In this document: piece by piece, positions 42,925 to 61,255 of the stretch
Layout of the letters: each line of letters starts with the position of its first letter
Position numbering within the stretch: position 1 is the first letter of the stretch
Assembly: GCF_006345805.1 (NCBI RefSeq)
Contig: NC_043005.1
Coordinates: 103,416,001-103,480,000 of the forward strand
Direction of reading: 5' to 3'
Source of the DNA: Octopus sinensis
Lineage: Eukaryota
DNA length: 64,000 nt
Translations under genes and position numbers: made by a program
Notes under the pieces: generated by a model
The model's database searches: none
The model's input: the letters and a program-made list of their open reading frames with translations, nothing else
Told to the model about the DNA's origin: nothing

Positions 42925-43370
42925 GATGTGATGGCCGTCCACTCGTGACCGAGGAAGACCATTGCCGACCTTCAGGAACATTGTGCGCTCTAGGACTAAC
43001 TTATATTTTGCCTTTGCGGCTCCGTTGGTGGCTAATGAGCCCTGCTCTTGACAAACATACACAACTGCAAACATTGCAGACCAAGCTTTCCCCATTTACT
43101 ATACGAGCCGTGCACTTTCGCGCAGCTCGCTTAAGTTCTTCATGCTGGATACGTGCTCTCTCAAAAGTGTCGATCCCCTCCTTAACCTGCTTCCTCCATC
43201 TGTGGCGATGACAGGCATTGTTCTCCCAGTCAGAGTCCTGCATATCAAAGGCCTTTAACGAGGACTTGACACAGTCCTTAAATCGCAGCCTTGGTTTCTG
43301 CCGGAGTCTCCTTCCATTCACAAGTTCTCCATAGAGCATCTGCTTAGGAATCCTTCTATCCTCCATTCTA
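42925..43370 (-). pseudogene. RTE-clade LINE 3' fragment
   Basis: RMEDRRIPKQMLYGEL..PRLRFKDCVK..CNVCS..SRAGLISHQR with C-terminal zinc finger; inserted in (TACA)n. Confidence 0.9.
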
Positions 43371-43467
43371 ATAATACATACATACAAATACATACACGCA
43401 ACAGATTCTCTATCATCATCAAGTAACAGTTCTTATATTTAGTGGTGAAACTTGCTACCGACTTGAC

Positions 43468-54763: not shown

Positions 54764-55222
<459 letters not shown>

Positions 55223-58699: not shown

Positions 58700-58846
58700 A
58701 CTATATATTATATATATATATTATATATATATATATATTATACATGCATAATATATATATGTGTATATCTCTCTATCTATATCTCTCTTCTCTCTCTCTC
58801 TCTCTATCTATATATATATATATATATAATATATTATATATATATA

Positions 58847-59122
58847 TATTATATAGAGGGTACTATTATTCATAGGTACCGCACGCTAGGAGGGACCTTT
58901 GCAGTCAAAACTACTAAAGTAAAAAAAAATTTACCGAATGCAAAATTTCAAAGTAAATCATTTAAAAACAGAATTTAGTTACATATCACCTGTGATTTCG
59001 CAATCAATGCAGAATATGCATTCTATGCTCTTCAGTGCATACCTATACTCTTCAGTGCATACCTATACTCTTCAGTGCGGTACCTATGAATAATAGTACC
59101 CTCTATATAATATAAATAAATA
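58847..59122. mobile_element. Fold-back element with perfect 38-bp arms and an internal HHR
   Basis: 58847-58884 is the exact reverse complement of 59075-59112; 20-bp tandem repeat at 59028-59078. Confidence 0.88.
58980..59039 (-). ncRNA. Type-I hammerhead ribozyme with intact core
   Basis: Minus strand TGCA-CTGAAGA-GCA..TGC-GAAA-TCAC ag GTGA-TA^TGTA. Confidence 0.82.
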
Positions 59123-60056
59123 TTTTCAAAGTGGAAAAATTTACAGATTTTTTCTCTTACGAGGTTTTTCACGCTAACTACTGATAATTTCTTATAAAGA
59201 TTTTATTCTTAATTTTAAATATATATATATATGCTTATAGAGAAAGAAGTGTGAGTATGTATTTGTAAACATATATACACGTCTGTGGCTGTGCTTCTCT
59301 GTACGTGAGCGTGCACCGTTTTCCAGCGTGTATGTGGTAATAATCCATTATCTCACCATGTCTTAACAGATCCAAAGTGGCTGGCTGCGTTTATCGAAAA
59401 TTCGCATTGACAATATTGCCTACACTCTATTTCAAAATCAGATTAGGTTTGAAGAATTATTGAAAAGGCAAACAACAACAAAAAAGGAAGACAACAATAG
59501 CAGTACTAGAAGCAAATCGAGCATCTTAGGCCAATATGTAAATAATATGTATATAGCTACATATACATAATCTTGCTTCTTTATTTGATTGCTGTCCTTA
59601 TTCTAATCAACTGCTTCATCATTTTTGTCTACATTTTTCATATTTCCTCTCAGTAAATCAGTAAATTTGTCTTTTTGCTCGCTTTTGTTGTTTTCTTTTT
59701 CTTTCTTCTATTTTTCACTATGGGCACCATCCCACTAGATTGTTTGCTGAGTCGTCTTAAAATTTGTTGTCTATTTACTTTACCTTCTACCTTTAACGAT
59801 TCAAGAGTTTCGAGAAATTACTTCTTTGCTAACATCTTTTCCCGGCGTTATTTCGTGTCAATTTTAATCTTCAAAAACGTTGGATTTTATTACTTCAGAT
59901 TTTCGAGTGTTTTGGGTTATTTTTGTGATTTGTGGTGATGGGGGGTTTATCTATTTCATATTATCTATTTCATTAAATTTAAAGATTTAAGTCTATGTAA
60001 GTACGAATGAATACGTATACGGATATACGACATTACACTCACACGCACACATATGC

Positions 60057-60184: not shown

Positions 60185-61255
60185 GACTCGCCTTCTATCA
60201 ACATGCGCTATCGCTTGGACGGCGGACTCTTCAATCTCGCACGCCTCCGTGCAATGACGCCGATCTCCGCTGTCTTAGTCCGTGAGATGCAGTATACCGA
60301 CTACAATACCACTCCGAGCCGGACCGCAGATGGCCTACAAAGGGCGGCCGATCTTTACGAACGCTTAGGGATGCAGGTAAACACATTAAAGACCAAGACA
60401 TTGATCCAAGCTGCACTAGGCTAGAACAGTCCACCCACAAACATTAGCATCGACGGCCAATCTCTAGAAGACGTTGAACACTTCGCCTACCTTGGGAATA
60501 TCCTTTCGAAGACCCCCACGTGTGAAAGGGACGTGGAGAACTGGATTGGGGCGGCCCACTCCGCCTTCGGGAGACTCAACCAACATGTATTCTTCAATCA
60601 CGCGCTGACCATTCAGACACAAGAATCATGGTCTTCCGTGCCATTGTCCTGTCAGCTCTACGCTTGTGTTACTTGGACGTTGTACTGCCGTGACTTGAAG
60701 CGCCTTGAATGCTTCCAGCAATCGAAGCTACGACAGATCCTCAGTATATATTGGGAAGATCACGTTACCAACAACGAGGCTCTTCACCGCGCCTCACAAC
60801 CAAGTGTTTCCGCTGGTTGGATCACGTCCAGCGCATAAAAACCTCTCATCTCCCAAGGATCATGCTCTACGGAGAACTTGCAATTGGAACAAGACCCAGA
60901 GGAGGTCCGAAATTCTGTTTTAACGACCAGGTCAAACGGACCTTGGCTCAAGCTAACATCCAGAAATCCTCATGGAAACAGATTGCCATGGATAGGCCAG
61001 CCTGGAGGACTGCTATACGCAATGGAACTATCTCCTTCGAGCAGAACAGACAGCAGAATGAGGAGGAAAAAAGCAGGAGAAGAAAGGAGAGTCTTCAACA
61101 TCCTCGACCTGCACTGACCATCCCGTGCAAGTTCTGCCCACGACTCTTTCACCACCGACTTGGACTCCAAAGTCACTTTCAGCACAAACATCAGCCGAGG
61201 AGACTGGGTGGAAACTGACGAACCCAATGCTCGGATACGGGCTGGAGTCGACCAT
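60185..61255 (+). pseudogene. RTE-clade LINE, RT through 3' end, frameshifted
   Basis: RYRLDGGLFNLARL..REMQYTD (decayed YADD), FAYLGNIL, RWLDHVQRI..LPRIMLYGEL..CKFCPR..GLQSH. Confidence 0.92.

What the first reader, a model, noticed from the sequence alone, without database searches (positions are those of the whole stretch)
58847..59122. Ribozyme inside a fold-back: intact HHR in the loop of a perfect 38-bp inverted repeat
The minus strand has a full core: CUGAAGA, G-C-closed stem II with internal hairpin AGAAT/ATTCT, GAAA, stem III TCAC/GTGA and an AUA triplet, with predicted cleavage between 58984 and 58983. The inverted arm ends at a GCAC microhomology adjoining a CUGAAGA copy. The 20-mer containing CUGAAGA is present about 2.5 times in tandem. 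This looks like repeated template switching at the ribozyme 5' boundary (inference), as expected for the inverted pLTR tails of Penelope-like insertions.
Basis: partly seen in the sequence, partly recalled or inferred. Interest (0 to 1): 0.72.

Follow-up and report, generated by a model that had tools for sequence, protein, structure and literature searches.

The report
Back-to-back hammerhead retrozyme insertion
This fold-back is one ordinary, partly clipped copy of an abundant 495-base non-coding repeat that carries a predicted self-cutting RNA; its back-to-back copies nearly always end at two different fixed points, which likely records a Penelope-type jumping-gene enzyme copying the RNA once from each cut DNA strand.

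Summary
The inverted repeat (40 bp exact), hammerhead core, cut site 58984/58983 and 20-mer triplication are real. The stretch is two 5'-truncated pieces, head-to-head in (TA)n, of a dispersed ~495-nt end-to-start-closed repeat (647 exact stem-III hits versus 4 control). Across subfamilies the hammerhead covaries (10 of 21 pairs with double changes; 0 of 500 shuffles reach it). This copy is not intact: the junction removes two of six native stem I pairs. The ribozyme does not set the junction: 2 arm ends at its 5' edge versus 4.2 expected; arm overlaps vary widely, excluding a MITE. The informative feature is that head-to-head copies end one arm at an inner site and the other ~110 nt further out in 28 of 29 unbiased cases (P~2e-8), both arms sharing one haplotype. 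Autonomous Hydra-like Penelope elements here show the same rule with a ~118-nt spacing; Neptune-like ones ~33 nt. Verdict: new member of animal non-LTR retrozymes, likely inserted by two-site double priming by a Hydra-like enzyme. Cleavage, circular RNA and the driver are untested. This scan reported the same pattern earlier for other repeat families of this genome.

The parts
58809..58849 (.). (TA)n target, left flank; overlaps the ambiguous outer bases of the left arm
   Evidence: sequence
58845..59039 (-). Left arm: 5'-truncated piece of the repeat unit (unit positions 188 to ~383), ending at the inner fixed 3' site
   Evidence: alignment to unit L016:2141-2637, 92.6%
58845..58884 (.). Left copy of the 40-bp exact inverted repeat (the part of the unit present in both arms)
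58919..58957 (-). Cluster of 7 substitutions relative to the subfamily; variant found once in the genome
58978..59039 (-). Type I hammerhead motif: stem I 59039-59036 with 58983-58980 (4 of 6 native pairs left), core 59035-59029, long stem II 59028-59000, GAAA 58999-58996, stem III 58995-58986, UA 58985-58984
58983..58984 (-). Predicted cleavage site (after AUA)
   Evidence: sequence and hammerhead consensus; not assayed
59040..59074 (.). 35-nt templated junction insert built from alternating pieces of the right-arm start and the left-arm end (makes the 20-mer triplication and two extra CUGAAGA copies)
59075..59219 (+). Right arm: 5'-truncated piece of the unit (positions 342 to ~487), ending at the outer fixed 3' site
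   Evidence: 98.7% to the unit
59075..59114 (.). Right copy of the 40-bp inverted repeat; starts with the 4-nt junction microhomology
59115..59219 (+). Penelope-type 'tail': the ~105-113 nt between the two fixed 3' sites, present on this arm only
59220..59232 (.). (TA)n target, right flank
54817..55110 (.). Older head-to-head copy of a sister subfamily (78-81% to the unit), decayed hammerhead; both visible ends at the inner site

Best explanation
The stretch is a head-to-head pair of 5'-truncated pieces of a ~495-nt non-coding hammerhead repeat inserted in a TA microsatellite, likely made when a Penelope-like (probably Hydra-type) enzyme cut both target strands and primed each on the same uncut or circular RNA, one at an inner and one at an outer fixed start site. 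Shown: the unit, its end-to-start closure, the two fixed 3' ends, the one-arm-per-site pattern, shared haplotypes between arms, hammerhead covariation, the templated junction. Inferred: source copies are transcribed, the hammerhead (predicted to work best as a dimer) cuts multimers into monomers that may be ligated into circles; the enzyme recognises a conserved RNA fold that spans the inner site; both cDNAs run a variable distance, often through the cut site and round the unit; their ends are joined by microhomology, here after two rounds of slippage that built the 20-mers. The inverted repeat is simply the stretch copied by both cDNAs. This copy's own ribozyme is likely weakened or dead and has no role at this locus.
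For: Family: 647 exact stem-III matches vs 4 for the reversed pattern; 271 vs 0 for a subfamily-A 20-mer. Closure: wherever unit position 1 is preceded by family sequence it is position 493; no ORF attached among the fetched family loci L001-L060 and L091-L140; arrays up to 10 units in subfamily D. Unbiased set (96 of the 100 listed hits, 68 insertions, window left out): 35 single-arm copies end 21 inner / 14 outer; 29 classifiable head-to-head copies are inner+outer in 28, inner+inner in 1, outer+outer in 0, against 48% expected under free choice, P~2e-8. Same pattern in subfamily B 10 of 10 and C 5 of 6 (read), D 16 of 17. 51 of 60 arms that reach the cut site read through it; 16 of 93 arms exceed one unit. 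At 16 polymorphic sites opposite arms agree 182 of 199 times (126 expected), tandem units 160 of 167 (107 expected). Hammerhead: 93.5% of cells paired, 10 of 21 pairs with double changes, 0 of 500 shuffles; position 7 takes all four bases in 113 cores. A conserved helix with compensatory pairs spans the inner site (7 of 32 predicted pairs). Hydra-like autonomous elements (Hydra motifs) carry intact hammerheads, sit in (TA)n, have two 3' ends ~115-120 nt apart and are inner+outer in 5 of 5 TA-flanked head-to-head copies; Neptune-like ones have 25-36 nt (one 50); the unit has ~105-113 nt. In vitro a Penelope-like protein cuts and extends both strands and starts at two internal RNA sites that define the tail (PMC11167929).
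Against: No nucleotide homology between the unit and any of 30 GIY-YIG loci, 10 longer stretches or 50 Hydra-like loci, apart from whole family copies inserted nearby: the driver rests on spacing and architecture only, and the spacings are close, not equal. Exceptions to the rule: L198 (inner+inner, interrupted, no TA flank), L215 (outer+outer), window 54817-55110 (inner+inner); 3 of 32 head-to-head A copies have one end elsewhere and were left out of the test. Shared haplotypes and read-through fit an uncut homogeneous multimer as well as a circle; some tandem pairs disagree (L016, 2 of 5 sites); in array L242 all plus-arm units carry a 23-nt duplication that the minus arm lacks. Polymorphic sites are linked, so those counts are not independent. 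PMC11167929 saw no difference in start site between strands in vitro and no homology of start site to target, whereas both sites here are TA-rich. Rfam does not score the motif and the hammerhead fold is not the monomer minimum-energy fold even for intact copies. PMC3846280 explains head-to-head junctions by self-priming on an antisense template; 4 of 28 copies have near-palindromic junctions.
Confidence: 0.78

Rival explanations
1. Ribozyme-driven fold-back: reverse transcription stalls at the hammerhead's 5' boundary and switches template repeatedly, or the cDNA snaps back on itself, producing the inverted arm.
For: This junction and a few others (L004, L037, L109) lie at unit 186-190; the insert is built by repeated switching; self-priming was proposed for head-to-head Penelope junctions (PMC3846280, passages); 15 of 28 copies have one arm contained in the other.
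Against: 2 ends observed vs 4.2 expected at unit 180-198 in the unbiased set; neither arm is contained in the other here or in 13 of 28 copies; a snap-back gives no reason for the second arm to stop at the other fixed site in (TA)n.
Confidence: 0.07
2. The pieces are terminal-repeat fragments of an autonomous ORF-bearing Penelope-like family not yet found, rather than a self-standing closed unit.
For: Architecture (inverted 5'-truncated copy, tail, TA target, hammerhead) is that of autonomous elements (PMC8557442 passages); genome searches score only the best 39-40 DNA candidates, so rare ORF-linked copies can be missed.
Against: Every tandem junction seen runs from unit end to unit start in four subfamilies; no attached ORF; no homology to 90 autonomous-type loci.
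Confidence: 0.08
3. The inverted and tandem forms arose after insertion by DNA-level events (hairpin-mediated repair, unequal exchange) in unstable TA tracts.
For: Some loci are later duplications (L167, L171); the L242 array shares a private duplication on one arm only; shared haplotypes are expected from local copying.
Against: Does not explain fixed inner and outer ends, their one-per-arm pairing in four subfamilies and in autonomous Hydra-like elements, or non-nested arms.
Confidence: 0.05
4. A DNA-transposon MITE with 38-40 bp terminal inverted repeats.
For: A perfect inverted repeat in TA-rich sequence.
Against: Overlap length varies from -47 to 244 nt; the element runs 105 nt past the right 'TIR'; 36 of 68 copies have a single orientation; tandem closure and hammerhead covariation.
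Confidence: 0.01

Closest known systems
Animal non-LTR retrozymes (Cervera and de la Pena 2020, PMC7229834, passages and section 14; Li, Clavereau and Pollet 2026, bioRxiv 10.64898/2026.07.22.740005, parts 1-3 of 5)
   Same: Non-coding tandem-forming unit of a few hundred bases, low GC, one type I hammerhead per unit, no LTR/PBS/PPT, coexisting with autonomous Penelope-like elements.
   Different: Unit ~495 nt (reported RNAs 170-400 nt; vertebrate consensus 51-972 bp); mostly dispersed truncated monomers and head-to-head pairs; the word 'inverted' does not occur in PMC7229834; long 29-nt stem II in subfamilies A-C; circular RNA and cleavage not shown here; no sequence link to an autonomous terminal repeat found, unlike 24 of 57 Xenopus families.
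EN+ Penelope-like elements, Hydra clade (Craig et al. 2021, PMC8557442, passages and section 11)
   Same: Inverted 5'-truncated copy at the 5' end, tail present at one end only, (TA)n targeting, canonical hammerhead; the Hydra-like families of this genome show the same two-site rule at similar spacing.
   Different: No ORF; tail ~110 nt rather than the 30-40 bp given as typical; no nucleotide homology to the Hydra-like elements sampled.
Poseidon element PAc of the green anole (Frangieh et al. 2024, PMC11167929, parts 1-2 of 4)
   Same: Two internal reverse-transcription start sites 3' of the hammerhead cut site define the tail; both target strands cut and extended; uncut RNA is a template.
   Different: No strand preference of start site was seen in vitro and the start site lacks target homology; here each arm nearly always takes a different site and both sites are TA-rich.
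Canonical metazoan type I hammerheads (Cervera and de la Pena 2014, PMC4209133, passages)
   Same: 6-bp helix I, conserved core, palindromic helix III favouring dimers.
   Different: Helix III of 3-4 bp rather than 1-2; helix II extended in subfamilies A-C; A10.1-C11.1 mismatch in subfamily B.

Membership tests
Type I hammerhead ribozyme (family consensus) | Core CUGANGA / GAAA / NUH with three helices | tested here: met
   position 7 varies over all four bases
Type I hammerhead ribozyme (family consensus) | Covariation of helices I and II | tested here: met
   10 of 21 pairs with double changes, 0 of 500 shuffles, slid controls 16-43% paired; helix III invariant, so uninformative; 13 hand-picked related rows
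Type I hammerhead ribozyme (family consensus) | Match to an Rfam hammerhead model | tested here: not met
   no match at E<=10
Type I hammerhead ribozyme (this copy) | Complete helix I | tested here: not met
   4 of 6 native pairs remain; hammerhead fold 4.7-6.3 kcal/mol above the minimum vs 3.2 for an intact copy; dimer minimum-energy fold lacks helix I
Type I hammerhead ribozyme (this copy) | Mg2+-dependent self-cleavage | not testable with these tools
   needs an in vitro assay
Animal non-LTR retrozyme | Tandem repeat unit of a few hundred bases with one type I hammerhead each, at least two consecutive units | tested here: met
   family level: dimers in A and B, arrays of 7-10 units in D; this locus itself is less than one unit
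Animal non-LTR retrozyme | No protein coding | tested here: met
   no sense ORF attached; only a ~170-codon start-less antisense frame in some copies
Animal non-LTR retrozyme | Expressed as linear and circular monomer RNA | tested here: inconclusive
   only contigs of runs guessed to be RNA were available; they cannot show ends or circles
Animal non-LTR retrozyme | Sequence relation to the terminal repeat of an autonomous Penelope-like element | tested here: not met
   none among 90 sampled loci; sampling covers a small part of >5000 candidates; reported for only some published families
Penelope-type insertion | Inverted 5'-truncated copy and a tail at one end only | tested here: met
   28 of 29
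Penelope-type insertion | (TA)n / AT-rich target | tested here: met
   flanks
Autonomous Penelope-like element | RT plus GIY-YIG ORF | tested here: not met
MITE | Fixed-length terminal inverted repeats | tested here: not met
MITE | Fixed short target-site duplication | tested here: inconclusive
   not readable inside (TA)n

The most novel reading that the evidence does not exclude
Penelope-type integration assigns the two start sites to the two target strands: one enzyme dimer on one (circular) RNA primes one strand at the inner site and the other at the outer site, spaced by a folded RNA element, and the spacing is a clade fingerprint (about 110-120 nt for Hydra, about 33 nt for Neptune). This retrozyme would then parasitise Hydra by mimicking that RNA geometry without shared sequence, and the genome would record rolling-circle reverse transcription directly.
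Probability: 0.35. Interest if true: 0.62.

Novelty: new member of a known kind. Interest (0 to 1): 0.36.

Why it matters
The locus itself is ordinary: one clipped copy among hundreds. The family is useful because how Penelope-like elements make their inverted ends and tails is an acknowledged open question (PMC8557442, PMC11167929). A small template with two fixed start sites, a 28-of-29 one-site-per-arm rule and a candidate enzyme of matching spacing in the same genome makes a sharp in vitro test possible, and it links retrozymes to Penelope enzymes by insertion anatomy rather than by sequence kinship. My paper searches returned no description of a cephalopod retrozyme or a count of this rule; the library lacks most subscription papers, and supplements were not seen.

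Tried and rejected
Rfam scans: no hammerhead hit. Sequencing runs: no RNA holder listed; contigs of runs guessed to be RNA cover the unit but cannot show cleavage, strand or circles; an empty-site allele could not be read through the microsatellite flank, and a weak joint across the junction in one run (20 letters on one side) was not used. Autonomous partner by sequence: 30 GIY-YIG loci, 10 longer stretches, 50 Hydra-like loci: none; neighbours such as L015/L246, L011/L245, L289 are separate insertions in the same TA tract. Pfam did not recognise the Hydra-like ORF; it was typed by motifs. A stop at the hammerhead cut site: 8 ends vs 4.3 expected, P=0.07, not significant. One search used a mis-registered structure line and is void; one search is the corrected count. 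No host gene was identified in the window, so transcription of this copy is unknown. Look-ups of earlier findings by sequence and near this place gave nothing. Rows left out of the end statistics: the window copy, L210, L173, L186, L200 (one end at neither site), and second copies of the duplicated loci L167 and L171.

Full report
Observation. The inverted repeat is exact over 40 bp, 58845-58884 against 59075-59114. The minus strand holds CUGAAGA (59035-59029), a 29-nt stem II closed by G-C, GAAA, TCAC-AG-GTGA and UA, putting the predicted cut between 58984 and 58983. One such core is found in the window and none in 100 simulated windows. The 20-mer is present three times in register. Rfam reports no hammerhead here or in two other family copies.

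What it is. A search of the own genome (2.72 Gb; likely a cephalopod, an inference from composition, recall and earlier scan notes, not tested) returned 2153 candidates, 40 scored. Mapping to a full unit (L016:2141-2637) shows that the window holds a minus-strand piece, unit 188 to ~383 (59039 to 58845), and a plus-strand piece, unit 342 to ~487 (59075 to 59219), with 5' ends meeting in the middle and 3' ends in (TA)n. The inverted repeat is the part of the unit present in both pieces. The unit closes on itself: tandem junctions run from position 493 to position 1. An 18-letter stem III pattern has 647 exact matches against 4 for the reversed control. At least four subfamilies exist at about 95, 86, 77 and 73% identity to the reference, plus single members of two more (L120, L289). 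Subfamily D forms arrays of 7-10 units. No sense ORF is attached. A contig from a run with a different organism label joins the right end to the same unique flank with 18 substitutions in about 520 nt, so the insertion is likely older than that split; only the right junction was seen.

The ribozyme. In 113 cores collected by a pattern that fixes the core, position 7 is A 71, U 22, C 10, G 10 times. On 13 representatives, 93.5% of cells pair, 10 of 21 pairs change on both sides and no shuffle of 500 reaches this; slid controls give 16-43%. Stem I is GUUGCA/UGUAAC in A and B, GACUUG/CAAGUC in D. The covarying inner hairpin of stem II is AAUGCA/UGCAUU. Stem III is near-palindromic (fully so in B), and two intact copies fold as a double hammerhead at -39.0 against -33.4 kcal/mol for two monomers, as described for metazoan type I motifs (PMC4209133, passages). 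The window copy is cut inside stem I and keeps 4 native pairs; its hammerhead fold lies 4.7-6.3 kcal/mol above the minimum (3.2 for an intact copy), its dimer does not form stem I, and the fold of the whole fold-back lacks stems I and III. So the family ribozyme is well supported, this copy is probably weakened, and cleavage is untested.

The ends. To avoid choosing by ribozyme content I took a 20-letter pattern next to the inner end (271 hits), examined 96 of the 100 listed (68 insertions) and left out the window. 3' ends fall at two sites about 105-113 nt apart. Single-arm copies use inner 21, outer 14 times (one more ends elsewhere). Of 32 head-to-head copies, 28 are inner+outer, 1 inner+inner (interrupted, no TA flank), 0 outer+outer, 3 have one end elsewhere; 28 of 29 against 48% expected gives P about 2e-8. 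Loss of long palindromes cannot explain the lack of inner+inner, whose repeats would be no longer. B gives 10 of 10, C 5 of 6 (read; the exception is window 54817-55110), D 16 of 17 (exception L215); these sets were chosen by similarity, not at random. 5' ends are scattered: 2 at the ribozyme's 5' edge (4.2 expected), 8 near the cut site (4.3 expected, P=0.07), an excess at unit 133-162 (15 vs 5.6, post hoc); 51 of 60 arms pass the cut site and 16 of 93 exceed one unit. A ribozyme in one arm only, that is 'in the loop', is the commonest outcome, 16 of 29. Neither arm contains the other in the window or in 13 of 28 copies, which excludes snap-back for those. Arms of one insertion agree at polymorphic sites 182 of 199 times (126 expected), tandem units 160 of 167 (107 expected), counts that include two later duplications and linked sites: one template, circle or uniform multimer.

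The junction. The 35-nt insert 59040-59074 alternates pieces of the right-arm start and the left-arm end, closing on a 4-nt microhomology. Microhomologies, blunt joins and short inserts are common at other junctions.

The driver. The genome has thousands of GIY-YIG candidates; two long ORFs score RVT_1 and GIY-YIG and are called Neptune-like here from their zinc-finger linker (recalled label); their tails are 25-36 nt, one 50. A second group (6074 candidates) has no Pfam hit but shows the Hydra marks of PMC8557442 section 11: CxCX5C linker, C-terminal nuclease with CxxC and CxH, RWK and DKT motifs. These carry intact hammerheads, end in (TA)n at two sites 115-120 nt apart and are inner+outer in 5 of 5 TA-flanked head-to-head copies. 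I tested Hydra because earlier scan notes pointed to it. No nucleotide homology to the unit was found in any of 90 loci, so the assignment is inference. A conserved long-range helix with compensatory pairs encloses the inner site and is a candidate recognition element.

Mechanism. Shown: unit, closure, two fixed ends, one per arm, shared template, read-through, templated join. Inferred: transcription of multimers, hammerhead cleavage, circularisation, capture by a Hydra-like enzyme, double-strand cut in (TA)n, priming of each strand at a different site, joining of the cDNA ends. PMC11167929 (parts 1-2 of 4) shows two internal start sites defining the tail, extension of both strands and use of uncut RNA, but no strand preference. 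PMC3846280 (passages) favours self-priming on an antisense template; 4 of 28 near-palindromic junctions here leave room for a minor share.

Comparison and novelty. It works like, and at family level meets the sequence criteria of, animal non-LTR retrozymes (PMC7229834, passages and section 14; bioRxiv 10.64898/2026.07.22.740005, parts 1-3 of 5); circular RNA is not shown and a sequence link to an autonomous terminal repeat was not found. Inverted 5'-truncated copies and a tail at one end are known Penelope traits (PMC8557442, passages). Searches found no cephalopod retrozyme and no count of the one-site-per-arm rule; supplements (Craig et al. files S1-S2, the preprint's tables) were not seen and may list related families. 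Earlier scan notes describe the same pattern in other repeat families of this genome, and one (e1-10346800) may concern this family; they are unchecked and not independent support. Verdict: new member of a known kind, interest 0.36.

Noticed in passing
window 58919-58957: Seven substitutions against subfamily A cluster in 39 of 195 nt of the left arm (post hoc P about 3e-4), none elsewhere; the variant occurs once in the genome and several letters match subfamily B or D. Mosaic template, local mutagenesis or assembly error.
   Followed up: partly
window 54817-55110: Older head-to-head copy of subfamily C with decayed hammerhead; both visible ends are at the inner site, flanked by GA and ATT repeats, an exception to the end rule.
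   Followed up: partly
L242:1889-6998 and L243:1925-5469: Head-to-head arrays of 7-11 units of subfamily D that still end inner+outer; all plus-arm units of L242 share a 23-nt duplication absent from its minus arm.
   Followed up: partly
unit positions 133-162 (e.g. L016:2273-2302): Excess of 5' truncation points, 15 vs 5.6 expected, in and upstream of a U-rich tract; possible RT pause site.
   Followed up: no
L102:1457-1524, L120:1495-1562: Subfamily B and L120 replace the usual G10.1-C11.1 pair by A-C while keeping the rest of the core.
   Followed up: no
L281-L299: Young Hydra-like elements with intact hammerheads whose stem II is 45-60 nt long, Asn-rich ORF inserts, and no Pfam match.
   Followed up: partly
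L065, L085, L089 (3' of the ORF): Neptune-like elements carry a hammerhead-like motif with an altered first core strand and a ~35-nt tail.
   Followed up: no
L198:1363-1729 and L185:1466-1832: Two family copies are interrupted by inserts of the same length (367 nt); the one read looks like a tRNA-derived SINE.
   Followed up: no
window 43001-43432 (-) and 60425-61218 (+): Decayed reverse-transcriptase C-terminal fragments that look like RTE-type LINEs (recalled label).
   Followed up: no
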